NCBI GenBank assembly: GCA_905178155.1
Contig: CAJINV010000010.1
Location: 248,001 to 312,000 of the forward strand
DNA from: Amoebophrya sp. A120
Taxonomy: Eukaryota > Protista > Dinoflagellata
Length of the DNA: 64,000 nt
Reading direction: 5' to 3'
Made by a program: the position numbers and the translations under genes. This document shows, piece after piece, positions 25,801 through 55,700 of this stretch. The notes beneath the pieces are model-generated. The model did no database searches. It was given only the letters and a program-made list of their open reading frames with translations, and was not told the origin of the DNA. The first letter of the stretch is position 1; the number at the start of each line of letters is the position of its first letter.

Positions 25801-27130
25801 TCCAGCACAACTAGCGGCTTATTGAGGTACTCCAGCATGGAGCGGAGAGCGGCCGGCTCATTTAACAATATTTTCTGCGACAGAACATCAACAAGAGGAC
25901 CCTGCTCACTGGAGCTGGCATTTTTGACGTCGCTTTTCTTGTCCTCGGAATGATGTTCTACTTGTTGGCCGGCTAGTACTGCTGGTGCTGGTGTTCCAGT
26001 GTCTGTTCGGCTTGTTCTTCCATTTGCATCTTCGACTACAGGAGCGCCAACAATTTCTGCTTCCGCAGGGACCACGTCGAACGCGGAAAAATGATGCTCC
26101 TGTTGAGCAGAGACTTTTCTTGGATCTTGGTACAATTTCTGTTCTCGTTTTCCCGGAATTGTTGTTGTAAACCAAGCCCCTGGAAGGTGATGTTGTTCAC
26201 CACTGCTGTCTTTTTTCAAGATCCCTTGCAAGGACGAGGGCCTGCTTATTTCCACACCTGCGGTTGAAGAGGCTGCGCTAGAGCTGCAAGTAGGTGAAGG
26301 AGCCGAAGGTTCTTGTTCTTCACTGCAATGGGTCCTCACGCCGAGGGCCTCAGCACGACTTCCCTGTTCGATGTTAGCCGCGACCCCAAGAACTACACTC
26401 GCTTCAGCCTGTAGTGACGCGGCAGCTTGTAGGTCGTGACCGTCCCGCCTTCGTAGTTCTTGTACAAGAACGTTCTGGGTGGAGTAGTTTTTTTCAAGCT
26501 GATATCATTTGTAAAAATGTCTGGGTCCTCTGGAAGAATCCAACTTGTCTGTCATGCTGATTTTGGATTCTAAACAAATCTGTATTGCATGAGCAGCAAA
26601 GAGAGTCCAAGTTTTGCTACACGGAAACACCATTTGTCATGCGGTATAGGCATCAGGAAGCCCTCACAAAATCTGTGACGCTAGGGCATGCATCACAGGC
26701 ATCAGCAGTCATGATGCAAAATGTGCATGACAAACCTGGCAATCTTCCAGACCCAGACATTTTTACATTTGATAGCTGACGCTTTACTTTCCGTCGTTCC
26801 TTTTCTTCGACGTACTGACACAGGAAGTCCCCCAATCCCGGCGGCTCGCCGTGGGCCTCCGCCGCGGCAGCGGCCGCGTTGGTGGGGGTCTCGCGGTGCG
26901 CGATGTGGCCCAGAAACGTCGCCGCGGTGGCGCACCAATCCAGAAGCTGGGGCGGGGTCGTGTGGGTCGTGGGGGCCGTGGGGGTGGTACTGGTAGTGTA
27001 GTTCTTCGCCGTTTTATTGGTACTAGCGGCGGAGGAAGTAGTTGTAGAAGTACTACACGCTGCGTCTTTCGTAAGAACAAGACCAGAAGTTTTTGCAGCT
27101 TCATCAAGAACACCGTAGACGACGGTCATT
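22846..27130 (-). CDS. Divergent Cof-type (IIB) HAD-fold protein with long low-complexity inserts; catalytic motifs degenerate
   Basis: LVVLDLDEAFL, PGIYVNGAYVQG, LPNVSKAAAVERFL and KVAVFAGS are colinear with the paralogue at 34354-37714; two introners; start uncertain. Confidence 0.7.
23567..23833. mobile_element. Introner family A
   Basis: A-type TIR; DR ACTCG/ACTCA. Confidence 0.88.
26503..26774. mobile_element. Introner family A
   Basis: A-type TIR; DR GCTGA; interior very similar to 16529-16793. Confidence 0.9.
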
Positions 27131-29367
27131 TTAGAAGCGGGCGGGAGACGAATCAATGAAAGTAGCTGGTGCAGCAAGTACGGCGGTAGTATCAATCTAG
27201 GTGTGTAGTTCCTGCAATTGGGTCTGTTGCGGTTGCTTGGAGTAGTAAAAATTTGTATCAAGAATCCAGAACACAACTGGGGTTCGGATGGAGATGGTTG
27301 CTATCAAACTACAACAGTTCTTCTTTCTTCAGTTTAAAAGTACACGTACGGCAGATATTTAACTTACGTAGACCACGAGTTTCTATCTTGCTCTACTCAG
27401 AGAAGTCGAGTATAGGAGGCGTAGAAGTGCTACAGCTACCAATACTTACTCAAGAACAATTTCAGGAACTGTACCTGTACCTGTTTCGAAGATTTTGGAG
27501 AAGACAGAAGAGAAAATGAGTCAAATACTAACTTCAAGACACATGTTGGAATTGGAATTTCATGTGGCCATGCCGAATCGGAAGAGACTACAAAGAGTCA
27601 GATCATGATCCCGTGACCGACCACCGAAACGAAGGAGGAGCAGCTCTACTGATCAATATTTGTTGATTTGTACTTCTACTTCTTTGTTTCCTTCCATGAA
27701 CGATACCTAAAGATCGGCTCCACGGAGGTGGCCAAGGAGGAAAGCTCGATAGCTTTGCTTTTGCACGAACCGATTTTTTCACGCAGATCTTTTTCTTTGC
27801 CTTCGTAGAAGATTTTTGATCTTGCCGATTTATTTTTTGTCATCAATTATGCTCGTATCTTTCACTTTCTCCTGAGAATGAAGCACGACAGCTCCAGCTG
27901 TTGTTCTACTACGTAGATATTAGGACCTACAGGATCCACGCGCACGCATGATCCCTCCACGGGGTTTGCGGGGCGCAATCGAGCTTGACCCTGTCCCCGG
28001 GCGGAAAACAATCCACTCATCCTGGTACGGACGAGCAAGAGTGTGTAGTAACCCTCTGCATTCATGATTTGGACGAACAGCGCAGGAGGTGAACAAGGAT
28101 TGTGCTTGTGCCTGGGCCGCACATGGTTCGGGAAGCGACTCAGAGCGCTGCACCGGCGGGCTCTGTTTCCAATGTTCCTGATGGCAGCATCAATGCGTCT
28201 TCGCTACTAGCGTCGTGTTGATTTTTAATTTTAACGCGGTCTTTCAATTATGGCAGCGGCGGGCTACAAGCTGCCTTGCGCCGCGTTCATCGTGCATCCT
28301 GCACTCTAGCGGATGCTGCTGCCTCTAGTACTTTGGCTTTGCAGGAGTAATATACAAAGTCGGTCCATGCAAGATGCGATCTTTGGCCGCACGGCAATGG
28401 TCATCATACATCAGTAACAAAAACAATGCCCAGTGGTCAGTGGTCAAAGAGGACGGGAGAGGACCAACGCGTTGGACGTGGAGTAGTAAGTACTCACGGT
28501 CTTGTGGCTAGCTCCTCTCCGTCCCGGTCTCCCTCTGAATGTAGTTGTGCCAATCAATACCTACACCATGCGTGAATCTTCTTAAACTAATCCTTAGCAA
28601 ATCAAAATAGGAAGCTTCCTTAGTAAATCTTCAAAACAGAAGTCTTCTACTTATAATCCTTTGGTAAATAAGCACGCAGGTTGGACAGCCTAGCTTATAT
28701 GAATTTCGACGAAGTGCAGCTATGGCTTCGCGACTTGTTGCGTGCTCTTGACTTTCATCGGTTCAAGCACCTCTTTCCCCGAAATTTTTCAAAGATCAAC
28801 AAGCTCCTTGCTTATGCTGTCGCGCTCACAAAAGTTTTTTCAAGCAGCTTGCTGGCCTTTGGTCTATAGTCGGTAGAAGAAAGTAAATTTGCAAATCATT
28901 TTTGTAGACAATTGCAAATACTAAAGCACAATACCAAAACAAGTGTAAAGAGAATTCCAAAACAATTCCATCCAGGTCGGGTTTGCTGCAATTCCGAAAC
29001 ACAACATTCTGTATAGCACAACACCGAGTCAGGATGTGATGACGCAATCAAAGATGAGAGAAAAGACAGCAGCGAGAACGAAAAGGCACGTCCTACGATA
29101 ACTTTGTCTGGCAGTAAGAAATCGCATACAAATACTAGCTCGCGCTACCTAGTGCAGCCGCATGCGAAATTGGAGACAAGACTATCCTGATTCTAATACG
29201 ACAATAAACTCCCAGGTAGTATTAGAAAATGTCTGCCATGTGGCTGCGCCGCCACGGGGTTTTTCGGCATGCAGGTTTGCATGACAACTCCGGGGTGGCT
29301 ACGTTATTGCGCAATATATCAAGGAGGGCGATAGAGATGAAGAAATCAAGGCGCGCCCTGCGATAAT

Positions 29368-32354
29368 CTAAAGGAGCGCTTCCTTCATCAAGTCGAGAAG
29401 CTGTCTGGCGCGCTCTTGCTGGCCATTATTCAGGTAGTAATTGAAAAGCGCGCGGAAGGTTTTTTCGTCAGGCGCTCCCACGGTTTCGTCCTTAGACATC
29501 AGGTCCAGGACCCTCTCAACGCCTTCGCTGATCTCGGTTTCGCCCCTCGGGTCGCCCGCTTTCGTGTGCGCCCTTATCCACATGTTGTAGGAAGCGACAT
29601 TCGGCACCACCCCCACATGCTTCATCCTTTCGAAAGTACGCTCCACGCCCGCGGGGTTGCCTTCCTTGGCGTGCGCGCCCATTATCGCACTAAAGGTGAA
29701 TATGTTCGGCTTCCGGCCTGCACTCTCCATCTTTGCCAGAGCTTCCTCGGCGGCCCCGGCGCTGCCGCTCCTAGCTTGGGCGCACACCAGGGCGCTGTAG
29801 CTGCGGACATCGGGGCGCAAACCTGCTTGCTCCATCTTCTGCAACGCCATCTTTGCGCCCTCAACGTCGCCTCTTTTCGCGTGGGCGCTCAGCAGGATGC
29901 CGTAGCTGACGACATTCGGGCGCAGCCCTGCCTGCTCCATCTTCTGCAACGCCATCTTTGCGCCCTCAACGCCGTCCCTTTTCGCGTGGGCGCTCATCAG
30001 AGTGCTGTAGCTGACGACATCCGGGCGCAGGCCTACTTGTCCCATTCGTCGCAGTGCCCTCTCTGCGCCCTCAACATTGCCGCCTTTCGCGTGCGCGTTC
30101 AGCAAGGTGTTGTAGCTGACGACGTCCGGGCGCAGGCCTGCGCGCTCCATCTTTTGCAACGCCTTCGCCGCGCCCTCAGCGTTGCCGCTTTTCGCGTGCG
30201 CGTTCAGCAAAGTGTTGTAGCTGACGACGTTCGGGCACAGGCCTGCTTGCTCCATCTTTTCCAGCACCCTCTCTGCGCCCCCAGCATTGCCGCTTTTCGC
30301 GTAAGCGCTCAGCGCGGTGCTGTAGCTGACGACGCCCGGGCGCAGGCCTGCGCGCTGCATACTTTCTAGAAGACGCTCCGCAGCCTCAGCGTTGCCACTT
30401 TTCGCGTAAGCACTCATGACAGTGGTGTAGCTGATTTCGTTCGGTTTCAAGCCTGCCTCCATCATTTGGCCAAGAACTCTTTCGGCGCTCGGGCCGTCGC
30501 CACGTTTAGCGTGCGCACTCATGAGCACGCTGTAGACAACGACATCCGGCGAGCTGACGACGCCCGGGCGCAGGCCTGCGCGCTGCATACTTTCTAGAAG
30601 ACGCTCCGCAGCCTTGGCGTTGCCACTTTTCGCGTAAGCACTCATGACAGTGGTGTAGCTGATTTCGTTCGGTTTCAAGCCTGCCTCCATCATTTGGCCA
30701 AGAACTCTTTCGGCGCTCGGACCGTCGCCACGTTTAGCGTGCGCACTCATGAGCACGCTGTAGACAACGACATCCGGCGCGACGCCCTCGGCTTGCATGC
30801 TGTTGAAGAAACTTTCTGCGCCCTTAACGTCACCTTCCGCAGCGCGGTCTGCTATTTGCTTCGTGATCTCCAAGAGCCGCGCGCCGTGACTCTCACCGCG
30901 AGATGAAAGGGCCCCGCTGATGGAAATCGGAATCGGTCCACCAGCTTCAGCTTTCCCCCGTCCCACGTCGCGCGACGTGGATCTACGACGAGAGCCCGGC
31001 CCTGTGCCGCAACCTTTCCCGCCGCTGCCTCCTCCGCGTCCCGTTCCCTTTGTCGAACGACACCCACCACCACGTATGCATTGCAAATGTGTGTGGGTCG
31101 GGAAGAATGGAGCTTTTCATGGTGCTCGGTCTCGATCTCAAAAAAATCTGTATTGCATGAGCGCCAACATTTGCCAAGTTCTGGCTACACAACAGGCGGA
31201 GTTTTCATGCGTAGGCATGACGAGGGTCTCGCAAGCTCGATGATGCTTCTGCACGCATTCCAGACAACGCGCGCGGCCCGCGACACGCATGACAAATGAA
31301 TCTCGCGATCTTCCAGACATACACATATTTGCAATGCATAACCGGTCCTCCAGCTGCATTTGCACCTTTCCCGCCAGAAGGGCCGCCGCCTGTGGAACGC
31401 GTAAGCGGTCCTCCAGCTGCATGCTGCCCCTCCCCGCCAGCCAGGCTATCGCTGATGGAAATCGAAATCGGTCCTCCAGCTGCATGCCCCGCTTCCCCGC
31501 CAGCCAGGCTCTCGCTGATGGAAATCGGAATCGATCCTCCAGCTGCAGTTCCACCTTTCCTGCGTCCCACGCGCGACGTGGATCTACGACGAGACCCCGG
31601 CCCTGTGCCGCCACCTTTTCCGCCGGTGCCTCGTCCGCGTCCCGTTCCCTTCATCGAACGCCAACCAGTACCACGTATACACTGCAAACATGTCTGGGTC
31701 TGGAAGAATGGAGCTCTTTATGGTGCTCAGTCTCGATCTCAAAAACATCTGTGCTGCATTTGCAGAGTTCTGGCTAGACAACCGACGGAGTTTTCATGAT
31801 TAGGCATAAGGAGGGTCTCGCAGGATCTGTGATGCTTCTGCACGCATAGCAGACCATGTGTGCGGCTGCGGTCCGCGACACGCATGACAAATAAATCTCG
31901 CAATCTTCCAGACCCAGAGGACATATTTGCAATGCATAATCGGTTCCCAAGCTGCGTTTTCGCCTTTCCCGCATCCCACGCGCGACGTGGATCTATGAGG
32001 AGACCCCGCCTCCCTGGTGTGTCCCTTGTTCGTCCAGGCCTTGCTCAATTCCGCGGCCTCGCGGTCCTTTTGCCGATTATAAAGCACCGCTCGCAACTTT
32101 TCATATGCGTGCGTTGTCAGCCGACAGCTCTCAGGTGCCTCCAGCAAATAGTAGAAACACTGAGTCGCCTCCTGTAGCTTTCCTGCGGCTAGCAGCTCTA
32201 GCACGTCGCAGCGTGACGAAACGGAGGAAGAAGCGGCTGCGCTGGAAGCGGCAACCAAGGTCAGATGCGAGGTTGCAAACAAACTAGTGCAAATGTTGTG
32301 CAGGCAGCCGAGAGCGCAGAACGCCCCTACTTTGGTGTAGCTCTTCAACATCAT
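29368..32354 (-). CDS. Pentatricopeptide repeat (PPR) protein with N-terminal leader; two introners
   Basis: About 12 tandem 35-aa repeats (PDVVSYNTLLNAHAKxGNxEGAxxxLxxMxxxGLR); exons join in frame after removing each element plus 5 nt. Confidence 0.9.
31075..31340. mobile_element. Introner, A-related, DR lost
   Basis: TATGCATTGCAAAT ... ATTTGCAATGCATA. Confidence 0.85.
31676..31938. mobile_element. Introner, A-related, duplicate of 31075-31340
   Basis: Same interior and same left flank (CCACG). Confidence 0.85.
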
Positions 32355-33200
32355 TGTAATCCTGCTTCCGGATGATCCGGATGTTTGTTAGAAGTTGGGG
32401 TATAATAATAATTTCTTCAAAAAAATTTTACTGATAGATACAACTTTTTTTTCAGCTTGTCTGTTGACAGGTGGGCTGCTTTTGACTTCTCGAAGGGATG
32501 TTACAGGCAAAAAGGTTTCAAAAAAGGAGAAAAAAGATCAAAATGTTGTTGAGTAGAACAAGTGATGCAATAAATACTGATGTGATTTGTTCGAGTTACA
32601 GCTTCTAAGGCCGTGAACGAGAGACAAAGAGGTCGACGTTGAATTTGAAGAGACTGTTCTTTTGAAAGAGAAAAAAAATGTACTACACAGATATATTACT
32701 GTTGGGCGAAGACTAGCCCGGACCGATCAAAAATACTTCAAATGATCAATCTGATGCTTTCGATTTAGCAGGAGATGATTTGTTACCGAACCTAGAAGTA
32801 CATTGGAAGATCACCTCACTCATGCCACCGATGGAAGTGAAACGAGCCTCGGATCCGATCATTTCTCATTCTTGCTCCTATTTTTCGTTGACAGAAGTGT
32901 GTGGAAGTGGATCTGATGAGATTGATCTGCTCAAATTGATTTTAGTTTCTTTTCATCCAATTATCTGTATCCCAGACCGCGCCGCTGGACTGCTTCTGAT
33001 CTTGTTCACTTCTTCAGGATTTATTCAAGAAATACGTGCATCACCGAAATATTGCATCTCTTGTGCTGAAGCTTTGAAGGTGTTGATCCTCGTCATAATG
33101 GTTTTCGTCGTGAGACTGAGAACACAACTGCTCCTTTCGGGCTCGGATTCGACTTCTACTTCGTCCTATCGGCGTTTTCATCTTCCAACTTTTAGATTTA
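32290..33200. repeat. Segmental duplication (leader peptide + upstream region), copy 1
   Basis: Colinear with ~37650-38500. Confidence 0.85.
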
Positions 33201-34353
33201 GCTGGGACTACTTCATTTGGCCGTGAATAATTCAAATGCTCATCATACATCCGTAACAAGAACAAATATGCCCAGTCAGTGGTGGAAGAGGACGGGAGAG
33301 GACCAAAGCGTTGGACTCGGAGTACTACTCACGATCTTACTAGATCCTCTCCGTCCCGCTCTCCCTCTGCATGTGCCAATCTCTGCATGTGCCAATAAAC
33401 AAAATAAAGAAGAATGCCTACACCTTGCAGGAATCTTCTTCATCCTTAGTAAACCAAAATAGGAAGCTTCCCAAAAGTGGAATCATCTTCCTAATCCAAA
33501 AAAAATAATTATGAAGCTTGTTAACCTTTGGTACTTCATCAGTCTGTTACGAATGATAAGAAAAAGATAGTAGTGATTACACCCAGCAGCAAGGGTTCCT
33601 GCTGCAGCTGTAGAGAAGGCGAGCCAACTCTTCCGCTGCCAAGGGGTGTACAACGGTGTTAGCTTCCCACCTTCCCCTGGCCCTGTTTCAAATTTGCGTA
33701 CTTAAGTGCGTAAGCACAGTTTCTTCTTCTTTCTTCGCCACTTCCAGCATCGTTTTCGTGCGTTGTTTCAATAAATAGCTTCTTGCTCCTCTTCCCAAGG
33801 TTAGTTGTACAACTACAGGAGTAGCGATCACATCCAATAAATTTTGATTTTCAACTACACAGCCAGCAATGAATTTTATTTTCCCAAAAAAAATATATGA
33901 ATAGTAAACTTTTAGTCGTGCTTCTCATGGTACAAAAAAAAAGTGCTCTTCGTCTCTTTGTTCGTCTCTTTATGGTAGCCAAAATTTTTCTTCTTAGTAC
34001 TAGCTCTAGTTTAACTACGTACTTCTATGTATAAGGCGCAACTTCTGCACGAAAAAATGATGACAAAACGCAGGTTTTGCAGAGCGAATTCTTCTGTATC
34101 ACAGAGGTGGCAGAAGTCCTCTTTACACTTCTCCACGACGAGTAGCACAGAAAAATTCTTCTGTTGTACCTGCCAGAGCGAGAGCAACTACAACTCAAGT
34201 AAGTACATTTCTTTAATCCTCGAGCTGCATCAGCAGCTACGTAAAAACTCACATGCCTCAGTCACGGCCGCTGCCCTACTTGCTCAAAAACAAAGTAGGC
34301 CGCTTCTTTTGTTGACGCAGCAAAAACTTCCCGACAGCACGACCGCCATGCAG

Positions 34354-43700: not shown

Positions 43701-46700
43701 TTCATATCTTGCCTGACAGTGAACAAAGTCTTGATATTGTATTTATTGTGTGTGGGAAAATTAAAAATTCATTTGTGCTAGAAAACATTTGTTCTGTGAT
43801 GTACGAAGGTGATAGTTTACAACGCCCGGTTTTTCTTGATGGCAAAAAATCTGTACTTTTAATCCAGCAAATGCTCCAGACCTCGATCACAAACATGAAG
43901 CTCGTCACACGACAATACTTACAGCTGATAAAAGCCGGCCTCCAGATGCCGCCTTCGAGGATTGCAGCCTCGACTTCTTTCGTCTTTCCGAGGTGCGTAA
44001 CTGCCTCTCCCAAGGACCTATCAAATGCAAAACTGTCTGGGTCTGGAATGTTGCCGGGTTTGTCATGCATGTTTTGCATGACCCAGGACGCCTGTAATGC
44101 ACGACCTAGCATCACAGATGTATTTTAGAGGGCTTCCTGGTCCTACTCCGGATGATAAATGCCCTCCCCGCGTAGCACAACCTAGACTCCTCTTGCTGGT
44201 CATGCAATACAGATTTTTTTATTTAGAGTCCAAAGTCAGCATCACAAGTTCCACTCTTCCATACACAGACATTTTTGCATTTGATAGGACCAGGTTGCCG
44301 TTGGCCCGTAGAAGAACTCGGCTTCCTTGCGATGGAGTTTGTTCGGCTTCTTGCGGTATGAATTGCAAAAGTATTGCATTCGTATAAATGCATTACAGAT
44401 TTCCTCAGCATGAGAGATAAAATTTCTAATGCTGATTTACCTAATGCATGCAGTAATCTGAATTGCTTCGTGCTGAGTTGTCTTCTTCACTTTTTTTCGT
44501 GGCCTTACGGGATGCAATCTGAGTTGTCATCGTATTGTGTATGCGATCGGTTTTCGTTCTTTCGTTGTTTTCGTTGTGTTTCGTTCACGTTTTTACGCTT
44601 CCTTTCGTACGTATGACGGGCGTTGCGTCATATCAGGGGAAAAATGCTTTCGCTGTCGAGCGTCGGGACTCACATGATAATCACATGATTATCATGTGAG
44701 CGAAACAACTCAAAATGGCTTATGGGGGTCCAAAGTCATATGATTATCATGTGAGCAATCGCGTGATAATTATATGATGACTTTGCGTTGGCTCATGCTT
44801 ATACTACTTTTTTCTTGTTTCATCTTCATTACCCTTACAGTGCCCAACTTCAGTTTGTCTTGTTCAGACGAAAAAAGAACACGCTACCCAAAAAAAAAAC
44901 TTGTCTACCTCGGACGAAAAACGAGCGCGCTAACCACCACAAAAAACTTCTCTACTACTAAGCAAAAAAAAACACCAGCTACGCACTAGCTTGCTACGCT
45001 TCTCGCTTCTCTATCTTTGTCGTTGTTTCGCGTTTTTCTTCTTCTCGCATTTTTTCGGTTTCGCCTTGCAAATCGAAAGAAAACAAAAACCATGGCGCTT
45101 GTTTCGGTGGCCGGCGATTATGATCGGGCGAAGGCACTGGCGGCCGCTGGCTTGCTCGACTTGCAGGATTCCGACTTCTGTTTCGGGGGCTCGGGCAATT
45201 TTCCCCCTCGCCTGACTCCCGCGGGGTGGGTCGACATGAGTGACCCGGGCGCTTACTCGGACAAGCAGCGCGACCGCCTGCGGCTCACTCGTATGAAGGT
45301 GGCGAAGCTGTGGGCGAATTTCAAGCGCTTGGAGACGCTCGGGAAGGGCCTCAGCGCCAAGGAAAAAATACGAAAAAAAATCAAGCCCCTGCAATTGCAG
45401 GGCGTGGGCAGCTTTTTAGGCATGACAAATTTCCCGGCTTTGCAGGGTTTCCGCCCGCTAAGGGCTCCGCCTTTTGCGGCGCCCAGGCCAGGCAGCGCCT
45501 GGCGCTTTGGGCTGTTTTTTATGATACAAGGGCCCCCGCCCGTGATTTGCTTGGGCGCACTTTTTCCCATTATGGCGCAGCATGCTTGGCGGGATGTTGG
45601 CGATGGCGATGGAAGGGGCGCAGCCCATCAGTCCCGAGCAGAAAGATTTTGCCGCGAATGTCGCCACAAAGACGCGGGATGCCGGCCTAATGGCGGCACT
45701 TCCGCACAGTGGCCCGGGCAGTGTCTTGGGCATTTCTTGGCTGCAGGACCCGGCCCCCGCTGCCACGGCTCCGGACGGAACCCAGGCCCCCACCAACGGG
45801 CAGTTCGACGCGGGCCCGGCTTCTGTGGCGAGCGACTCCGATTGCGGGGACAATTCGAAGGCGAGCGGCAAAGCGCCCGGGCGCAAGTTCGATCCGCCCG
45901 CGGGCAGCACGGTCGGTGGCCCGGGCTTGCACAACCTGCCCCCCCCGCCCCCCCCGATGCCGTCGGCGTTTCCGGGTTACCGGTACACCGGGGAAGGGTT
46001 GGCGACGACCGATTTGGATGCGGCGGCACTCGTCGCAGACATGACCTATCCCGCAAAAAAATGCACTCCCCAGGCGCATGGAGGGCGGCGGGGCCTCGTG
46101 GTGGCTTTTTGCATTTGCCCCGCCGGGGGGCAAAGGAATTTTTTTTCGTTTTGCCGGTTCGCGTTTTCGATCTTGTACGCAGTGAGGCCGCCAGCCTTGG
46201 GTGGAAAGCATTTTTTTAGGGGATAGGTCACGGGTCACGAAGTTGTTGCCGGTCGGGGCCCTCCGGAAGCTGATCCTGACACAGGCCAAGGACCCGCTGC
46301 GCGGCGGGGGAGGTATTCTTTTTTGCTTGGGTGTTGCGATAGATTTTTGCTTCCGCTTTCTTATAGTAAGGGAGGGCAGGGGGGCGCTTCAGTCGTTTTC
46401 CGCGTAGTGGGGTTTCTTTTTTCACATGACAAATAGCATTCATCTTTTCTGTTTTTCAGGCGTCGCCAGCATGGAGCAGCGAGCGGACCCGAAGGCGTGG
46501 CGGCCCGACGCGCTCGGGAAGGATTTTCATTATTTCTTTCGCCCGATGGGCTCCGACTGGATTTTACGCATGTGCACGCGCAAAGCCTTCGCAACGGCGC
46601 GCAAGCATTACGCGCGACGGAGTTGCGGCGTTTTTCTGCAAAGCCGCGGGCGCCCGGTGAAGATTCTAAACCCTAGGCCCCGGCCCAGGTCGCGGCGCAG

Positions 46701-49700
46701 GTTTGCGCCGGTTGGTGAGAAAATTTCTTTGGCCGGCCGGCGGCCGAGCGAAGCGACCCGAGTTGCAAGGCGCGCGCCCAGTGTGGCGCAGCGTCGGGGC
46801 CGTTCCTTGGCTAGATAGGGCAGCGCCGCCCCCCGCCGCGTGCGCGCATCTAGTAGCATGGGGGGCGTTGTGGGATCGCGTTTTCCTTCCTTGCTTGCCG
46901 TCCGTATAAGGGGAAAGGGGCGCCGGGTGCTTGATTGGCCGCTGCCAAGCACCATGACAGAAGAGCAGGGGGAAATGGGCGGTCGCTCAATTTTCGGCCC
47001 AGCCGTCGGGCAATACTCCGCGCGCGCGCTCGTAGCGCGGCGCTGTTTTGCGGGGGCTTTGCGTGTTTGATATTTTTTGGCCGACCTGGACAACGCTGCG
47101 CCGGGGGTGGTGGAAAGGGCGAAGGAAGACCACCGCTGCCAGCTGGTGACCCGCACTTCGGCAGCCTGCTGGCAGGCGTGGTTTCAGGTCCCCGGCGGCG
47201 CGACGGCGGAAAAAGATTTCCGCACGGTGATGGTTCCCCTTTTAGGGGGGGACAGGCACGCCAACAAGCCGAACCAAGTCGGGAGGCTCCCCGGCAGCCG
47301 CAACCCCAAGCCGGGACGGGGCAAGTGGCTGTGCCGGGTCGAGTGGATCCGCGGCGAGAAACCGGCGGAGGCCCCTGCTGCGGCCTCAGGCGGACAGGCC
47401 CGGGCGACTTCTTTTTCTAATTCGTTTCTGAAAGTTGGCTAATTTGAGAACCAAAAGAAGGCGCAAGCGCAGAAAAAAACACCCCGGCCGAACACCCTAG
47501 CCCGAGGGTGATGCCTCCCCGAAGAACCAAACCCCCCGAACATTATTGCTCCGCGGGCGGGCATAACGGAATCAACAAGGCGCAAAATCAGGCAAAAAAA
47601 GCAACACGGAACGGAGAAACACCACGCCCAACCTGCCGGACCCAAAGCCCGGCCGGAACACAAAGAAAGGCCCACCAAGGGAATTCATGGTGCCAGCGCA
47701 AGCCGATACACGCGGCGCCCAACCAATCAAAGGCCCGGCCACAGGCCATCAAAATTCGAAGAGAGGACGCGGGCGGGCAAGCATCGGCCGGGCCAGAATG
47801 AAAGGACACAAATTAGAATCGGCTTCGAATTCGTGTCCGGCGCGCGCCGGTTTCGTGTCTAATTTGCATCCGGAGACACCACCCGACCCCCCGAAAAGCA
47901 GGTGTCTAATTTGAAATCTAATTTTTTTGGAACCGTGTCTAATATGCTCTTTAATCTGCATCTAATTTGCAGAGAATCCCCAAACCCCCGGCCGAAAAAT
48001 CGTTCCCGATTTCCCTGTACAAAATTTCTGCGATTTTGTGCCGTGAAATCGGTAACGATTTTCGGCCGCTGCAAATTAGCCAGCCAATTAGCGCCTATTA
48101 GCAGCTACATTAGCTGCAAATTAGGCGCAGATTAGCTGCAGATTAGGTGCAGATTAGAAGCGCCTAAAAAAGGTGCGTTTTCCAATTAGAATTTCAAATT
48201 AGAAAATTCCGGGAGGTGTTCCCGGGGTTTTTGGTGGGTATGTCAAACATGGTCGACGCCATGTTTGAAATGCCCGCGCCCAGGACCATCTCCAGACGAA
48301 GAAGGAGGAAACCATAGGACGGGGCGCGAAACTCCCTACCGGGGCAAAGTCCGTCGGCCTGCAACGCCCGGCCCAAAAAACACACAGACGGAAGCCATGC
48401 CGGGAGGGTCACAGGCCGAACGACAAACCAGAACACGCCCCAACCAACCGACCACGGCTTCCAGACCGAAGGGAGACGGGCCGCCGAAGCCAATGCCGCA
48501 AAGCGAAAGACACCCCCGCCACGAAATCGGCAAAGCCACGAGGCCACGGGCCCGCATTCGAATAGCGGCGCGCCGAATGTGCCCCGTGCGCTTCGCAAGG
48601 AGATTCGGCACGCAACCAAGCCGACGCAAGGGGGCTGCGCACGCTCTCAAATTAGCCGGATTTTAGTTGATAATTAGACCCCGAAGGCGCCCGGGGCTGT
48701 CCGCCTGATGCGGCCGCCCCGGGAGAAGCTTAAGGCCGTGAACACAGGCGCCCCCCCCCGTTGTTGTTTCAGCTAATGCGCGGACTTGGTTGCGCTTTCG
48801 CTGGTTTCCCAGGATTTTCCACGAAAGTCCTGGGAAATTCAGGAAATCAGCACGACAGACGCCAGAAACGATATCGGGGAGGGGCTTCGTTTTTTCAGCG
48901 ATTGCGGTACGGCTTCGACCGAAGTTTTGCAAAAGATCGAGGGGAACGGCAATTGTTGCCCTCTTTCGATTGCGGCGGCCACAGGCATCAGCATGCCGAA
49001 GGTGAAGCAGTTGGCGGAGGGTTTCATGGCGGACAAGCGCGAAGAGCTTGGCCCGTTTTGGGTGGGGGAGTACGGAGTGGACGAGCCGGCGGGCCCCGCG
49101 GTTTTAGCAGAGCAGAGCAAGTGGCTGGCCTGGTTGGAAAAACTTCTGCACCCGACGGCAACGGTATGGCTGGGCCACGCATTTTTGGAGGCGGTGGCGA
49201 AAGTCATGGACCCTATGCGAAAAAATGAGCCCGCCCGCACCTAAAAGAGCCAAGCGGCACGCCGCGCGCTGTCGTTTTTGCGCGGGATGCGGCGCCCGTT
49301 TTGCGAAAATTTGCGACCCGTGCCTCTCTTGTCTCTGATGTGTAGCGGGCTGGTTTGCTTTTTCTTTTGCATAGTGTTGTCGATTCAGATCGAACCCGCC
49401 CCCGGTTCTCAAGAGCAGCCGCAGAGAATCGGAAGCGGCGCGAAGGCGATCCGACTCGAGTACGATGGCCGCCACTACAACGCTTTTGTCAGGCGCGGCG
49501 CTGAAGCGAAAGCGACCGGGACTTCCTCTGCCAGCCCCGCGCCCCCCGAAACGAAGGCCGAAACGGTTTCGAAAACGCAAGAGGGCGAACCTGTGGCGGC
49601 TGGCTTGGCCTCTCGCAAACGTGCAGCGGAAGCAGATGCGCCCAGGCCGTCGGTTTCGAGCGATGTTAGCTTGGGCGACTCGAGCGAAAGCGATGGGGAG

Positions 49701-52700
49701 GCTGCTTCGGATGCAAGCGAGTGCGCGCCCCCCCCACGGAAGCGGGGGCGAAAGTCCAATGCCGGCAAAAATTTTTCTTTGCCCGATGGCGCGACTGAAT
49801 TCTTGCTGCGGGCTGCTGACATTGGGGCGGCTTTCAAAACGTTGGGGCTTACCGCGCGGCAGCGGAAGTGGTGGAAAACAAAGAAAAACTTTTTCCGCTT
49901 AGCCCCGGGCACGGGCAAGCTGCAGGTCCGCGTAGAGTTCCAGGGCTACGGACGCAAAACCACCGAGGCGCTGATGGTGTATCCGGATTGGCTTACCGTC
50001 ATCGGCGCCGACGACGACGCGGAAAAACAGCGCATTGCGGCCCTTGGGCATTTGCGGTCGCATGGGGGAATTGAGGCAACTGGGGTGGCCATCCAACAGC
50101 TTGGCTTCACGTGGTGCGGCTTGAAAGAAAGCGCGCGGGTTGCGGTGCAAGCGTGCGAGGCTTGCGCGGCCAACGAAGAACATGCGCCACAGCAGCAGGA
50201 TTCTTACGCAAGCAGCACTTTGGCGGCGCTCAAGGACCCCGCCAATGAGTCCCTTCGGCCTTTTGCCTGGGCGGGCGTCGACTGCATAGTTTGCACCCCC
50301 TGCGAAAACTCGGCGCACCGCGGAAAAAATGTCGGGACGCGCTTCGTCGGTTGTTTGAACATGTGCTGCCTCACGACTGGCGCCGTTTGTTCCAAACTGC
50401 TGACGAGCTTCGAGGCGGAAGAGGTCAAGCAAGCGTATCTGGACATGGTCGAGGAACACGGCGCGCCGGATCATTTGAACATTGACAAGGGCACAGAGCT
50501 GCAGCAGATAAAGAACTGGAGCCAATGCACCTGCTTGACGCGCGACCATAAGTGCGCGACCTTCACCAACGACCCCCCGGTGGGCGCAGCCTTTCGCACG
50601 GATATCCGCGAAAGCCCTCGCGCGCATCCGCAGTCCAATGGTGCCGCGGAAAGTTCTACGAAACTGAAAAAGCCACTCGCCCCATATTTATAAAGGCCAT
50701 TCGTGTTGCTGGGTATGTGTTCGCGCGTGTTCTGCAACGGACTACAACCCGTGGCCACGCATCAGCAACGCATGCAAATTCCTTTTGCAATATGGGGCGG
50801 GGGGATTTTTCGGTGATAACCTACAATGGCCAGCTGAAGCAGCAATTGCGTAAAAGGGGCGGCGAAAAGGATTGGCCTCGCCATTTGCCTGCGTCTGTGG
50901 CGGCACTGAACCGACGGGCGACGCGGGGCCGTCGGATTCCCGCTGCGAGGCATCTGAGCACGTTTCTACGCCCCTTGCGGGACATCACCGAAGCCACTCT
51001 GCATCCCGTGCAACGTGCGCCCCCGCATATCGTTGCAGACAAGGGCGCCGCGGCAGAAAGCGCAAGCGCAGCCCCAGCCACCGCACTGGCTGGACCCCCG
51101 CCGCAGAATTCCGAGGAAAGGAAACACGGCGCCGGGGCCGCGGATGGCGAAAGTGATGGCGCTGCTGATTTTGCGGCCGCAACGTTGCGCGGCTCGCTGG
51201 CCAGACAGGCGCTACGCAATCGCAGCCGCTTCTTTGAAAATCGTGAGGATGGGGGCAGGCTGAAGGACATCAAAAAACTGAAAATTGGGGAACGTGTTTT
51301 GTGCAGAAACAGACAGAAAAGCCCCGGCTTGGCAACAAAATTCTTGGGGCCTTTCGTCGTTACGCAGGTGAAAGCGCTCGGGGTGGATGCTCACAGCGAC
51401 GGAGTCCTCGCCGGCAAGAAACGCGAAACGACGCTGCGCGATGTTCCTTGGAAGGACCTCAAGCGGTGCCCCACGGGCCTCACTCAAGTCGCAGCGCCGC
51501 CTGCGCCTCCACCCGAAACGGCGCCGCCTGCCGCGCCGAATCACGCCCCGCCACGAGCCCAACAAGAAACGGCGTCGGCTGCTGGGCCACCGCCTCCAGC
51601 TGCGGGCGACGATCTTTCCGCGATCGCCGCCGTCGACCCCGCAATGGATCGCGTTTTTGGCTCGGGCTCGCTTCCGCTATTAAGCTCTGCAACACTCGTG
51701 CTGGCGCGCATGTGGTTGCGCCTTTTTCTCGGTGTCGTTTTTTCTCTTTATGCGCCCAGAAGCATGCTGACCTCTAGTTTTTCTTTGTTGTTTGGCTGCT
51801 TGCGTAATTACATTGCGCCAGTGCGTTTTTGCAGTGCATAAAGGCAAACGAAAGCCTACGTCGACGTCGCCGAGCTGGAAACTGCCGGCCCGAAACAAGT
51901 TCCCACGAACATCCGGGGTTCGGTCACCCGTGTCGAGGGGGCGACGCGCGGAATTCGGATCCGCATTGAGGGCGTTACTGGTGTCAGCATCGTTTGGCGA
52001 ATTTATGAGGCTGCACAAATGGCGCGGCGGCGTGCTCAGCGGTGCCCTTGCGTCGTTTTCATTCCTTTGGCGCTCACGAGAAATTTTCAAGGCGGCCAGT
52101 TTCTGCGCATGCCGGCAACGTGGCGCACGACTGCGATCGAGGCGCGCGCCCCGCCGGAGCTTCAGGAACTGCACCGCATGGCCTCCACGTCCTCCGCCTC
52201 GGAGGGGCGCCGGTCTCTGTCTGCGTTCAAGAATCCCGAGCCCTGAAGAGGGGGAACGAGAAAAGGGGCGCGGCGTCGCTTTTCCGTCCTTGCTTAGCTT
52301 CTTGGGCTGTTATTGCTTGTGCTAGTAGATGCGTCGCGTTCTTCTTACTCGTTTTGTTTTGTTTCGAATGTGTGACTTCTCGCGGAAAACCACATGTGTT
52401 ATGCTACTTTTATCAGTCGCTCTTCTCGTCTTTTCTCGTATCTCTTCTTGTGTCGGGTTTGCACTGTTATCAGCTATAATTATTCCCACTAGGAGCGCAG
52501 CGCACCGCGCGAGTTGATTTGAAGCTGTCGCTTCGACCAACGCGCTCTGTTGCTGCACTCCACTTGTACACTATGCGCTTCTTCTTGAATTTTGCGTGCT
52601 ATTTTTGCACTATTCTGCTGTCTTCTGTTTCTGCAAACTGTTTCCATTTCCGTACGAAGTACAGCGCGCCCCGCATGTTGATTGACGGCTAGCGCTTTCA

Positions 52701-55700
52701 CCAACTTGCCCCGACGCTGCACTTCGCCTGCGAGTTTTCCTTTGCTCGTTTTGTTCTCATACAAAACCTGCACTGCTAATTTGATACGTCCCTGCGTTTT
52801 GTGTTTGTGCAAGTTAAGTTTTGTAGGCTTTATTTGTCAATGTGGAACTCGTTCTGTGTATTTTTGTTTTCCCTATGTTAGCTTTGGCTTTCTCGTTTTC
52901 ATTCCCTGCATCTTCACAATCTAAAGAGCGACTTTTTTTTGATCGCGTTCGTCAGTGCGCCAATTTTGTTACAGCAGCTGCAGCTAAGTTAATAGAAGTG
53001 GATCGCGCTCGCTTTCCTGTCGCTACTTTGCTGAATTTTTTTTCCGCTTCCTCGCATTATTCTACTTCGCAGCGCAGCTATATCACAGAAGCGGCAAGCT
53101 GAGCTGCTTTGTCTTTTGAAACTGAATTGCATCGATCTCTACAAAAACACTTGATGCGTTTTGCAATTCATTTTTGGGAAAATATGTTGCAAGGGTTGCT
53201 TTTTTGCTTTTGTCGAATTTGGCTCGCCTGGTGTTCGCTTTCGCTTTTCGGTGCTGCGTAATACGATACGCTGCAAGCTTCGCTGGGTACTCGATACGTA
53301 TTCTGTTACAATTCATCCTATACGACAATTCATCTGGGTGCATGCATGATTGCGATACGAGTACGATACTTTTGCACAGGATATGCGGAAAAAGGGAAGA
53401 AACGGCTGCCAGTGGGAATCGTCTTCAACATCATGATGATCGTGAAGATCCGAGAAGTCCTTACTAGTATCGTCATGGACGGGGGACCGGTGGTGGCAAG
53501 GTGTAGAAGTCGTCGCCGTCGCGCTGTCGTCTCGTCCACTTCCAATTGTATGAAGATCCCCGTGGCCGTGGTCCATATCGAAGATATCAACGTCCTCCTC
53601 GTACTCATTGTATTCGGCCCTACTCCACAATTGCAACACGCGCTCCAGTATCCTCTGCAAAAGTATCGTAGTCGTTCGTAGAAATTGCTGTTTATGCATG
53701 ACAAATCTTTTTCCTAAGGTAAAACAGCATTACAAATTTCATTTGTAATGCTGAGCTAATTTGTAATGCAATTTATACGAATACGATGCTTTTGCAGTGC
53801 ATATCCAACTCTTTCCGACTCGGAATGTCCGCGAATCCGGCGCGGAGCCGGGTCACGCTAGGACTTGGATGGTGGTCGAAATATGTTTCCCAACTGATTT
53901 ATTCACTGCAAAAGGAGTTGCGTTAATCTTAATATGGTCCGGCTTCTATCTTATACAACTCAGGCCGCACTACATCCTGCCTTCGTCAAATACGACATGC
54001 AACTTTTATTTCAAGTCGTTGCAATGAAGCAATTATGCAAGGTGATGAACCCGTCGCGGTTGATAGATGCAAGTCCGAAAAACGATACAGATACTCAATA
54101 CTTTTGCAAATTGAATAAGATCACCACACTGTCCACCGTCAACGGCGTATTCTTGTGCACGTTATCCACTAGCTGAAGCAAATTTTCGTATACAGTCGGG
54201 TTCTCCTCGGGATCGATGTGCAAACCGAGTTGAGAAATGACGGCCGCTGGGGGTCCGAGCATGGAACAACTCAGAAATTCCTGTTTCTGTTTTTTGGTCA
54301 GTCGAAATTCTTCCATCAAGTGCTTTTTGAGGAGCTCGAACAGGATCAACTCCTTCAATTCCGAGACCGTTTTGCCGTTCCAGACGCTAGGGTGGAGAGA
54401 AAGAAGCTCGTCACCTGACAGATTGAAAACTAAAAGGTTGGGCGGATGAAGGCGCGTCGTCCCCGTGGCTGAAGATGATTTTTTACCAATTTTCGAATTT
54501 GTTGGTCTTGGTGCTGCTGAAGCAGGACTGGAGCTATAAATGTGATTGGGCCGCTCCCTGTAGTCCTTCTGATGTGCTGTCGTATATGTGACTAGTTGTT
54601 GATGTACTCCCTCAGGATCTCGGCGAAGAGACCCCTGCTCCACCGTCAGGCCAACATTCTTTCCGTCATGATCCTCCTGCTTTCCATGTAGGTGTCCAGC
54701 AGCATCTTCGTCTTCATCTTCCACATCTTCAGCCGCGAGGACCACTCCTGGTAGTGATCGCTCTGTTCTTTTGGTCCCCGGAGCAGGCGGTGGTGGGCTT
54801 CCAACAACTACTGCGGCAGCAACGTGTACTAGCAGCTGCAGGTTGCTCAGCACGACCTCCTGGTGGAGGACGTCGAAAAGAAAGCACACCTCCAGCAGCG
54901 GCAGCACTAATGGTAAGAGGCTCAGCTGCTTTCTTGACGCCATTTTTATCTTCATCAAGGAGTCATGTGCTTTATTGTTGTTCATGTTCTCCCTGCTGCT
55001 CACGACCGGCGGGGTGGACGACTTGTTCTTGGCATGGTACGGAATAGGTGCAGCACCATCGTGATTTGTGTTTTTTCTCTACTTGAGCAAGAACTGCAGC
55101 AACAACAGACACCACTCAACTACTCAACTTCCACAAAAGGAGACACATAACACACATCAGAGGGGGTTTGTTGGTCTCCGGTCCTCGGTCCTCAGTTCAT
55201 CCCAAGGCAATAGAAGACAACGAGAGAAGAAGGGGGAAAGCTCACACACACCAAGGGGGGTTTGTTGGTCTCCGGTCCTACCTCGGTCCTCAGTCCTTCC
55301 CAAGGTAATAGAAGACAACGAGAGAAGAAAGAAGAAAGCTCACACACATCAAGAAAGGGGGTTTGTTGGTCTCCGGTCCTCGGTCCTCAGTCCATCCCGA
55401 TGTAATAGAAGACAGCGAGAGGAGAAAGGAGAAAGCTCACACACATCAAGAAAGGGCTTTTGTTGGTCTCCGGTCCTCGGTCCTCAGTCCATCCCGATGC
55501 AATAGAAGACAGCGAGAGAAGAAGGGAGAAAGCGCACACATAAGAGGGGGTCTGTTGGTCTCCGGTCCTCGGTCCTCAGTCCATCCCAAGGCAATAGAAA
55601 GCCGACGAGAGAAGAAGGGAGAAAGCTCACACACATCAGAGGGAGTCTGTTGGTCTCCGGTCCTCGGTCCTCTGTCCTTCGCAGGGTAGTAGTTGGCGAG

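What the first reader, a model, noticed from the sequence alone, without database searches (positions are those of the whole stretch)
45369..51840. The transposon's own genes are split by introners, even inside catalytic motifs, and obey a '+5 nt' rule without direct repeats
Seen: TAY...ATA inverted-repeat inserts at 46047-46225, 46565-47072, 49214-49373, 50657-50818 and 51678-51840 (and 45369-45526). Their flanking 5-mers differ (e.g. AGTTC/ACCTA, GACCC/GTGTT). For the first five, deleting the element plus 5 nt rebuilds the frame and motifs (WILADLD; NGAAExxNGQLK). Inference: splice sites are set by distance from the TAY/RTA stem, not by DR sequence or GT-AG. The element then depends on the host's non-canonical splicing and has been resident for a long time. 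The divergent flanks allow the true cut positions to be mapped unambiguously.
Basis: partly seen in the sequence, partly recalled or inferred. Interest (0 to 1): 0.8.

Follow-up and report, generated by a model that had tools for sequence, protein, structure and literature searches.

The report
Old introners inside a transposon's genes
Six small, worn transposon-derived inserts break up the genes of a larger transposon in a marine parasite; neighbouring host transcripts lose such inserts as their length plus five bases without normal splice signals, so the transposon's own inserts are likely removed the same way, and their worn ends likely show which letters the still-unknown splicing machine needs.

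Summary
The six TAY...ATA inserts are real and lack flanking repeats (12/30 flank matches). They interrupt two stop-free reading frames of an 8.9-kb Ginger-like element (RepB-type primase; OTU, integrase). Frames fix the extra length only modulo 3; integrase spacing favours +5.

'+5' is not a separate rule: it is the introners' 5-bp target duplication, already published for Amoebophrya A120. It is intact in young host copies and has decayed here.

Transcript-like contigs of one sample skip element+5 at 13 of 13 shown host junctions. Those with mismatched flanks fit one common register: 1 nt + element + 4 nt. One passes over an available GT-AG pair. The element's own junctions were not seen in RNA.

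Decayed introns in intact genes, plus a perfect 4-bp duplication at this site, support long residence and a recent jump. 'Stem ruler' is only partly supported: terminal pairing is often broken while the letters nUAY and AUA-N4 persist, which leans towards a relaxed spliceosome.

Euglena has a published fixed-spacer analogue. The scan noted the 1+4 register and similar elements before on other pieces of this genome. New variant of a known kind.

The parts
44449..53342 (+). 8,894-bp Ginger-like integrase DNA transposon; ends TGCA-N6-TGAATTG on both sides (imperfect inverted repeat), subterminal TGA[AG]TTG repeats
44445..44448 (.). left copy of the element's 4-bp target duplication TGCA (right copy 53343-53346), perfect
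44357..53383 (-). host introner (about 150-bp family) split by the element; perfect 5-bp duplication TGCGG at 44352-44356 and 53384-53388; would make a 9-kb host intron
   Evidence: empty site matches family member 42849-42999 at 116 of 151 columns; host frame reads through under the 1+4 rule; not tested in RNA
45092..47442 (+). gene 1, predicted 434 aa, ending in a RepB-type primase domain; exons 45092-45367, 45531-45541, 45581-46045, 46230-46312, 46460-46563, 47077-47442
   Evidence: no internal stop; PF16793 E=2e-4, below cut-off; Atlas first hit 0.95, RepB-like
48777..52246 (+). gene 2 frame (true start unknown), 989 codons: OTU-like domain, H2C2 zinc finger, DDE integrase core, GPF motif; exons 48777-49212, 49378-50655, 50823-51676, 51845-52246
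   Evidence: zf-H2C2 E=8.7e-5, below cut-off; alignment to P0001 across the core; OTU lead, Atlas 0.91, 28% of that cluster
45368..45530 (+). I1, predicted intron = 1 nt + element 45369-45526 + 4 nt
   Evidence: needs the 39-nt GT-AG intron; arms not paired in the fold
46046..46229 (+). I2, predicted intron around element 46047-46225
46564..47076 (+). I3, predicted intron around element 46565-47072, two codons before the primase DLD motif (SDWI|LADLD)
   Evidence: two indels of the diverged version fall inside it
49213..49377 (+). I4, predicted intron around element 49214-49373, inside the OTU-like domain
50656..50822 (+). I5, predicted intron around element 50657-50818, two codons after the likely catalytic E of the integrase (NGAAES[Y]NGQLK)
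   Evidence: spacing equals PFV integrase HPQSSGKVERKNSDIK as printed; two indels inside it
51677..51844 (+). I6, predicted intron around element 51678-51840; worn member of the 150-170-bp host family
   Evidence: z 4.7-5.4 to four host copies; downstream exon has no homologue
45542..45580 (+). predicted 39-nt GT-AG intron
   Evidence: removes an in-frame TGA; inferred only
46313..46459 (+). predicted 147-nt GT-AG intron
   Evidence: one indel inside it
31071..31341 (-). host intron, flanks 2/5 matched, skip 271 = element+5; informative for register
35353..35651 (-). host intron, flanks 3/5 matched, skip 299 = element+5 although GT-AG options of +4 and +6 exist
43450..43931 (-). host intron, flanks 2/5 matched, skip 482 = element+5; almost no predicted end pairing

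Best explanation
The six inserts are worn introner copies of the Amoebophrya A120 type inside an 8.9-kb integrase transposon, and they are likely spliced out as 1 nt + element + 4 nt, the one common register that fits the host transcript contigs. Steps: (1) an introner inserts and duplicates 5 bp (shown for host copies; inferred for these six). (2) The host removes element+5, which restores the original sequence at any target (shown at 13 of 13 host junctions displayed). (3) The duplicated letters left inside the intron are then free to drift, so the repeats vanish with age while the frame stays (inferred). (4) The element kept both reading frames open through this decay and moved recently, so it likely depends on the host's non-canonical splicing (inferred). 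(5) The machine is most likely (about 55%) a relaxed, U1-less spliceosome that reads nUAY as donor and a fixed A near the 3' end (AUA-N4), with the hairpin only bringing the ends together (inferred, untested).
For: Host junctions: 15 of 28 joint rows were displayed; 13 lie at TAY..RTA elements and all 13 skip element+5; 2 are repeat-to-repeat joins. The allowed left-flank counts at six mismatched junctions ({1,2}, {0,1}, {1,2}, {1-5}, {1-5}, {0-4}) intersect only at 1, and the three genes are on the minus strand, giving 1+4 in transcript sense. A contig piece ending at 31671 fits the same value (joint row not shown). At 35357 GT-AG options of +4 and +6 exist, yet the skip is +5. Element: 6 of 6 inserts fall in the +5 frame class and none has a GT-AG pair near its ends. 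Retention gives a stop at each of I2-I6. 6 of 6 displayed indels within the gene spans of a diverged version lie in predicted introns although exons are 73% of the span (P=3.5e-4; 12 of 20 indel rows displayed). Both frames stay open in 2 of 2000 simulations at 5% random change and 0 of 2000 at 10%, whereas flanks match at only 12/30 against 54/65 in the 13 verified host introns. Letters over pairing: all 4 elements with unequal ends are 5' TAC / 3' ATA (a C-A mismatch) and none is TAT / GTA (a tolerated wobble). Farhat 2021 reports U2, U4, U5 (A120) and U6 and most spliceosomal proteins, but no U1.
Against: The register rests on one sample, three genes and the assumption of one common cut; variable cuts inside the allowed ranges fit as well. 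X6/X7 are RNA by the tool's guess, supported here by their lack of the inserts. Exonic substitutions shown are only 6 of 13 synonymous (P 0.08-0.25; 40 of 340 rows displayed). BLOSUM scoring against P0001 ties +5 with -1 (69 each). Against the spliceosome step: UA at +2,+3 may simply be the transposon end; none of the six starts with G; 10 of 11 introns with a changed or decayed first position start with a pyrimidine (post hoc, two not independent); and one verified intron has G instead of A at -7.
Confidence: 0.72

Rival explanations
1. Same introns and same 1+4 register, but cut by a non-spliceosomal nuclease and ligase that measure from the paired stem, as the first reader proposed and as is suggested for Euglena nonconventional introns. 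This rivals step 5 only.
For: Arm-to-arm pairing is predicted in 5 of 6 element inserts and 7 of 8 host introns folded. AG is ignored at 35357 and G at +1 is not favoured. Euglena has a fixed-spacer code N3-CDG...CH'G-N5-6 tested by knock-in (PMC12501133, passages).
Against: The terminal triplets are predicted paired in only 2 of 6 element inserts; host intron 43454-43930 is cut at +5 with almost no predicted end pairing; unequal ends are 4:0 in favour of the mismatch rather than the wobble. Folding predictions are not structures.
Confidence: 0.33
2. The old inserts are introns, but their cut is not the host's 1+4: the register varies inside the 5-nt window, or old introns have slid to +2 or +8.
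For: Frame fixes only the class modulo 3. Farhat's Fig. 3 legend calls the splice sites variable relative to the hairpin, and the Fig. S23 legend gives 1-5 nt. I1 has a perfect CAAGG repeat at +11.
Against: All 13 displayed host junctions are exactly +5, including those with 2/5 flanks; one register fits all six informative ones; +5 gives the integrase E-x-x-N-x-x-L-K spacing.
Confidence: 0.12
3. The element is dead and the inserts are MITE insertions that were never spliced from it.
Against: 4,275 nt of exon carry no stop or frameshift while the inserts are heavily worn; indels avoid exons; the element's own 4-bp duplication is perfect; the inserts also stand in a version about 2% diverged.
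Confidence: 0.07

Closest known systems
Introner elements / non-canonical introns of Amoebophrya sp. A120 (Farhat et al. 2021, PMC7789003; sections 10, 11, 12, 16, passages and supplement legends read; figures not seen)
   Same: Inverted repeats starting TAT with an A run, direct repeats of 3-5 nt (5 bp in the Fig. S19 legend), no fixed end dinucleotides, removal from RNA.
   Different: The text read leaves the border 'unknown' and 'variable' (1-5 nt from the repeat); here one register, 1+4, fits. These six have lost the repeats, three start TAC, and they lie in a transposon's genes.
Euglena nonconventional introns (Nomura et al. 2025, PMC12501133; passages)
   Different: Motifs and spacers differ (N3-CDG...CH'G-N5-6 against N1-TAY...RTA-N4); unrelated lineage; tested genetically there, not here.
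Ginger1 / Ginger2 DNA transposons (Bao et al. 2010, PMC2836005; passages)
   Same: Gypsy-like integrase with zinc finger, DDE and GPY/F, no reverse transcriptase found, 4-bp duplication, TG...CA ends, OTU domain, 1-4 introns in the transposase gene.
   Different: Ginger1 introns are nearly all GT-AG; its ends are TGTNR with 40-270-bp repeats, the target is CCGG/CCGT and OTU is C-terminal. Here the ends are TGCAG/TGCAC with a short imperfect repeat, the target is TGCA, OTU is N-terminal and a RepB-type primase gene lies upstream.
Fritillaria non-GT/AG introns (PMC13326754 and PMC11282704; passages)
   Same: Transposon-derived non-canonical introns; precedent for removal by an altered U2-type spliceosome.
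   Different: They keep preferred end dinucleotides and U1; A120 has no detected U1 and no end dinucleotide.

Membership tests
Amoebophrya A120-type introners | Terminal inverted repeat starting TAT followed by an A run | tested here: met
   6 of 6 end ATA; 3 start TAT and 3 TAC; arms worn
Amoebophrya A120-type introners | 3-5-nt direct repeat at the borders | tested here: not met
   0 of 6 perfect 5-mers, 12/30 matches; 17 of 32 host elements perfect. Read as decay.
Amoebophrya A120-type introners | Repeated family in the genome | tested here: inconclusive
   Only the window could be searched (no genome held): I6 resembles a host family (z about 5), four others z 3.3-3.7 as best of many comparisons, I3 none; no BLAST hit
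Amoebophrya A120-type introners | Removed from RNA without GT-AG | tested here: inconclusive
   Met for 13 host elements; not observed for the six inserts themselves
Ginger1 transposons | Gypsy-like integrase with H2C2, DDE and GPY/F | tested here: met
   zf-H2C2 below cut-off; D, D, E and FLGPF motifs by alignment to P0001 and PFV integrase; no rve Pfam hit on the split exons
Ginger1 transposons | 4-bp target duplication | tested here: met
   TGCA/TGCA; other lengths are possible in this palindromic site, but 4 bp gives TG...CA ends in register
Ginger1 transposons | TGTNR ends, 40-270-bp TIR, CCGG/CCGT target | tested here: not met
   TGCAG/TGCAC, 12 of the first 17 positions alike, target TGCA
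Ginger1 transposons | C-terminal OTU or Ulp1 domain | tested here: not met
   The OTU-like segment is N-terminal and is a lead only
Ginger1 transposons | Phylogenetic placement with Ginger1 transposases | not tested
   Only one homologue was found; no tree built
Euglena-type stem-ruler introns | Fixed spacers from terminal motifs | tested here: met
   1+4 fits all six informative host junctions; motif and spacers differ from Euglena
Euglena-type stem-ruler introns | Pairing of the terminal motifs required; non-lariat product | not testable with these tools
   Folding suggests terminal pairing is often absent; needs mutation and intron-product assays

The most novel reading that the evidence does not exclude
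Amoebophrya A120 splices with a minimal code, nUAY...AUA-N4, whose spacers add up to the introner's 5-bp duplication, so any insertion is erased. The worn introns of this primase-integrase transposon are a natural mutagenesis of that code: repeats and terminal pairing are dispensable, the A at -7 is kept as a fixed branch point of a U1-less spliceosome, and an autonomous transposon has become locked to this one host's splicing system.
Probability: 0.35. Interest if true: 0.75.

Novelty: new variant of a known kind. Interest (0 to 1): 0.5.

Why it matters
How Amoebophrya removes tens of thousands of introns that lack GT-AG and U1 is an open question, and the published account leaves their borders undefined because the repeats hide them. 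A fixed 1+4 register turns the 'variable' splice sites into one motif, which would fix gene annotation and gives direct tests (branch mapping, point changes). Old introns with decayed repeats show what is kept when selection has had time to act. They also show that even a mobile element can come to rely on the host's unusual splicing, which would limit its spread to other species. The intron class, its 5-bp repeats and introns in Ginger genes are already published, so the gain is a sharper code, not a new system.

Tried and rejected
No whole genome is held, so copy number and families outside the window were not examined. No RNA holder was listed for 44900-52400. X3-X5 laid 2, 0 and 0 reads on 44000-53500, which is no test; every X3/X4 read laid only partly, so these runs gave no junctions. 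X6/X7 were laid only on 24301-44300; the cap then closed, so the element's junctions and the 9-kb host intron were not examined. Homologue searches were nearly empty: 0 hits in two word-index searches, 1 hit among the representatives (P0001), none in metagenome or viral contigs or plasmids; PDB sequence searches with the OTU and primase exons gave only chance hits; the last exon had no Atlas hit. Rejected: WILADLD as proof of +5 (+2 also gives a hydrophobic run before DLD); the OTU spacing at I4 as a test (comparison from recall only, no profile could be run); GT-AG alternatives at the six inserts (none); this element as the introners' mobiliser (4-bp duplication and TG...CA ends against 5 bp and TAT...ATA). 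The host list of 32 was picked partly with a repeat bonus, so 136/160 is biased upward; the 54/65 of the 13 verified introns is the fairer figure. Element 38947-39058 was left out of the strand-based tallies (strand unresolved, uninformative). No statement of a fixed 1+4 register, of introners in transposon genes or of a RepB-primase/integrase element was found in searches or in the passages read; Farhat's Figs 3 and S19-S23 are images I could not see and may show the offsets.
Full report
Observation. The six inserts lie at the stated coordinates, begin TAY, end ATA and have unlike flanking 5-mers. Flank matches are 2,2,3,1,2,2 of 5 (12/30), barely above chance (P=0.066). Each needs an extra length of 2 modulo 3 to keep the frame. 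With element+5 and two GT-AG introns (45542-45580, 46313-46459), two frames of 434 and 989 codons read without internal stops. Retaining any of I2-I6 gives a stop 10-84 codons after the insert begins. No GT-AG pair lies near the ends of any insert. Frame alone cannot tell +5 from +2 or +8. WILADLD is not a test (+2 gives WIFLADLD). The integrase junction is a better one: +5 gives HPQSNGAAESYNGQLK, the spacing of PFV integrase HPQSSGKVERKNSDIK as printed, although scoring against the one homologue P0001 ties +5 with -1.

The carrier. The genes belong to an 8,894-bp element, 44449-53342, with TGCA-N6-TGAATTG at both ends and a perfect TGCA duplication. It sits inside a host introner, 44357-53383, which keeps a perfect TGCGG duplication; the rebuilt empty site matches a family member at 116 of 151 columns. 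Gene 1 ends in a RepB-type primase domain (PF16793 E=2e-4, below cut-off; Atlas 0.95). Gene 2 has an OTU-like segment (lead only), a zinc finger, a DDE core and an FLGPF motif. It works like a Ginger transposon (PMC2836005, passages) but fails Ginger1's end, target and domain-order features. Several GT-AG pairs could join the two genes in frame; this is untested. Its 4-bp duplication and TG...CA ends mean it is not the introners' mobiliser.

What +5 is. The motif matches the A120 introners of Farhat et al. 2021 (PMC7789003, sections 10-12 and 16 and supplement legends): repeats starting TAT, direct repeats of 3-5 nt, 5 bp in their example, splice sites 1-5 nt from the repeat, border 'unknown'. 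In this window 17 of 32 hand-listed host elements have a perfect 5-nt duplication, against 2, 1, 0, 0, 0 for 3, 4, 6, 7, 8 nt. So +5 is one copy of the duplication.

RNA evidence, host genes only. Contigs of runs X6 and X7 (one sample; RNA by the tool's guess; long pieces with no differing letters) were laid on 24301-44300. Of 28 joint rows 15 were displayed; 2 join repeat copies, and 13 lie at TAY..RTA elements. All 13 skip element+5; 7 have perfect flanks and 6 do not. The number of left-flank letters kept is {1,2} at 31075, {0,1} at 35357, {1,2} at 43454, {1-5} at 37260 and 43045, and {0-4} at 42849. The only common value is 1. A piece ending at 31671 fits 1 exactly, but its joint row was not displayed. 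The three genes read on the minus strand (366, 602 and 363 aa against 243, 338 and 151), so the intron is 1 nt + TAY...RTA + 4 nt. At 35357, GT-AG introns of +4 and +6 are available and the contig skips +5. The limits are one sample, three genes and the assumption of a single register. The element's own junctions were not seen in RNA.

Indirect evidence that the six are working introns. Run X1 holds a version about 2% diverged that also carries I3 and I5 (pieces 2, 3, 6). All 6 displayed indels within the gene spans fall in predicted introns, though exons make up 73% (P=3.5e-4; 12 of 20 rows displayed). Exonic substitutions are uninformative (6 of 13 synonymous; 40 of 340 rows displayed). Random change at 5% of sites leaves both frames open in 2 of 2000 trials and at 10% in 0 of 2000, while flanks have fallen to 12/30 against 54/65 in the verified host introns. 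The genes were therefore likely kept under selection long after the inserts arrived, and the perfect 4-bp and 5-bp duplications at this site point to a later jump. No absolute age follows. The contrast in the same window is a Helitron frame of 2,028 codons with no insert.

Mechanism. Arm-to-arm pairing is predicted for 5 of 6 inserts and 7 of 8 host introns folded, but the terminal triplets pair in only 2 of 6 inserts, and verified intron 43454-43930 has almost no predicted end pairing. All 4 elements with unequal ends are TAC at the 5' end and ATA at the 3' end, a mismatch; none is TAT/GTA, which would pair by wobble. What survives is U+2, A+3, Y+4 and A-7, U-6, A-5 (A-7 in 6 of 6 inserts and 12 of 13 host introns); TAY and RTA were also my selection pattern, so only the choice of A over G and the asymmetry are informative. 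I therefore favour a relaxed U1-less spliceosome that reads nUAY and a branch A at fixed short distance (about 55%), with precedent in Fritillaria (passages). The idea came from earlier scan notes; the asymmetry test is mine. The rival is a stem-measuring nuclease and ligase as suggested for Euglena (about 33%). In its favour, no insert starts with G, 10 of 11 introns with a decayed first position start with a pyrimidine (post hoc), and AG is ignored. Short fixed branch-to-acceptor distances in other microbes are recalled, not checked.

Novelty. The intron class and its 5-bp repeats are published; introns in Ginger genes are published; a fixed-spacer code is published for Euglena. A 1+4 register for Amoebophrya and introners inside a transposon's genes were not found in searches or in passages of PMC12130899, PMC11282704, PMC12621601, PMC12005148 and PMC11453091 and part 1 of 4 of bioRxiv 2020.10.14.339549; Farhat's figures could not be seen. 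I derived 1+4 before consulting the scan's notes, which report the same register and similar elements on other pieces of this genome; these are unchecked and not independent support. Verdict: observation confirmed, interpretation partly supported, new variant of a known kind, interest 0.5.

Noticed in passing
window 8967-15050 (+): Uninterrupted 2,028-codon Helitron Rep/helicase frame (PF14214 E=6.5e-31, PF05970 E=1.4e-25): a second transposon with no introner in its gene.
   Followed up: partly
window 47377-48717: Between primase and OTU exons: 73-nt inverted arms 1.2 kb apart, 11-bp tandem repeats (48109-48163) and a palindrome (47989-48068). Could be an origin-like region for the primase or a nested element; several GT-AG pairs across it would fuse the two genes in frame.
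   Followed up: partly
window 44357-53383: The element sits in an ATGCAT site of a host introner that also lacks 16 nt just beside the insertion; the host gene (minus strand, DUF285 hit further downstream) reads through a predicted 9-kb intron.
   Followed up: partly
window 45092-47442: A RepB-type (plasmid/phage-like) primase in an integrase DNA transposon without reverse transcriptase; not found in one search.
   Followed up: partly
host introns 31075, 31676, 37260, 43454, 43045 and inserts I1-I6: First intron base is a pyrimidine in 10 of 11 worn cases; in three host cases it is T where the exon copy of the duplication has G, as if a GT start were lost.
   Followed up: partly
window 51845-52246: Last exon of gene 2 looks by eye like a single-strand-binding OB fold (recalled likeness); no Pfam or Atlas hit.
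   Followed up: partly
window 28172-28325: Hundreds of X3/X4 reads lie partly on this short stretch and run on unlike the window, some with poly(T) ends: a conserved short RNA or repeat shared with another organism.
   Followed up: no
window 44669-44756 and 44848-44976: Palindromic TCACATGAT repeats and three 46-bp direct repeats upstream of gene 1, possibly promoter or binding sites.
   Followed up: no
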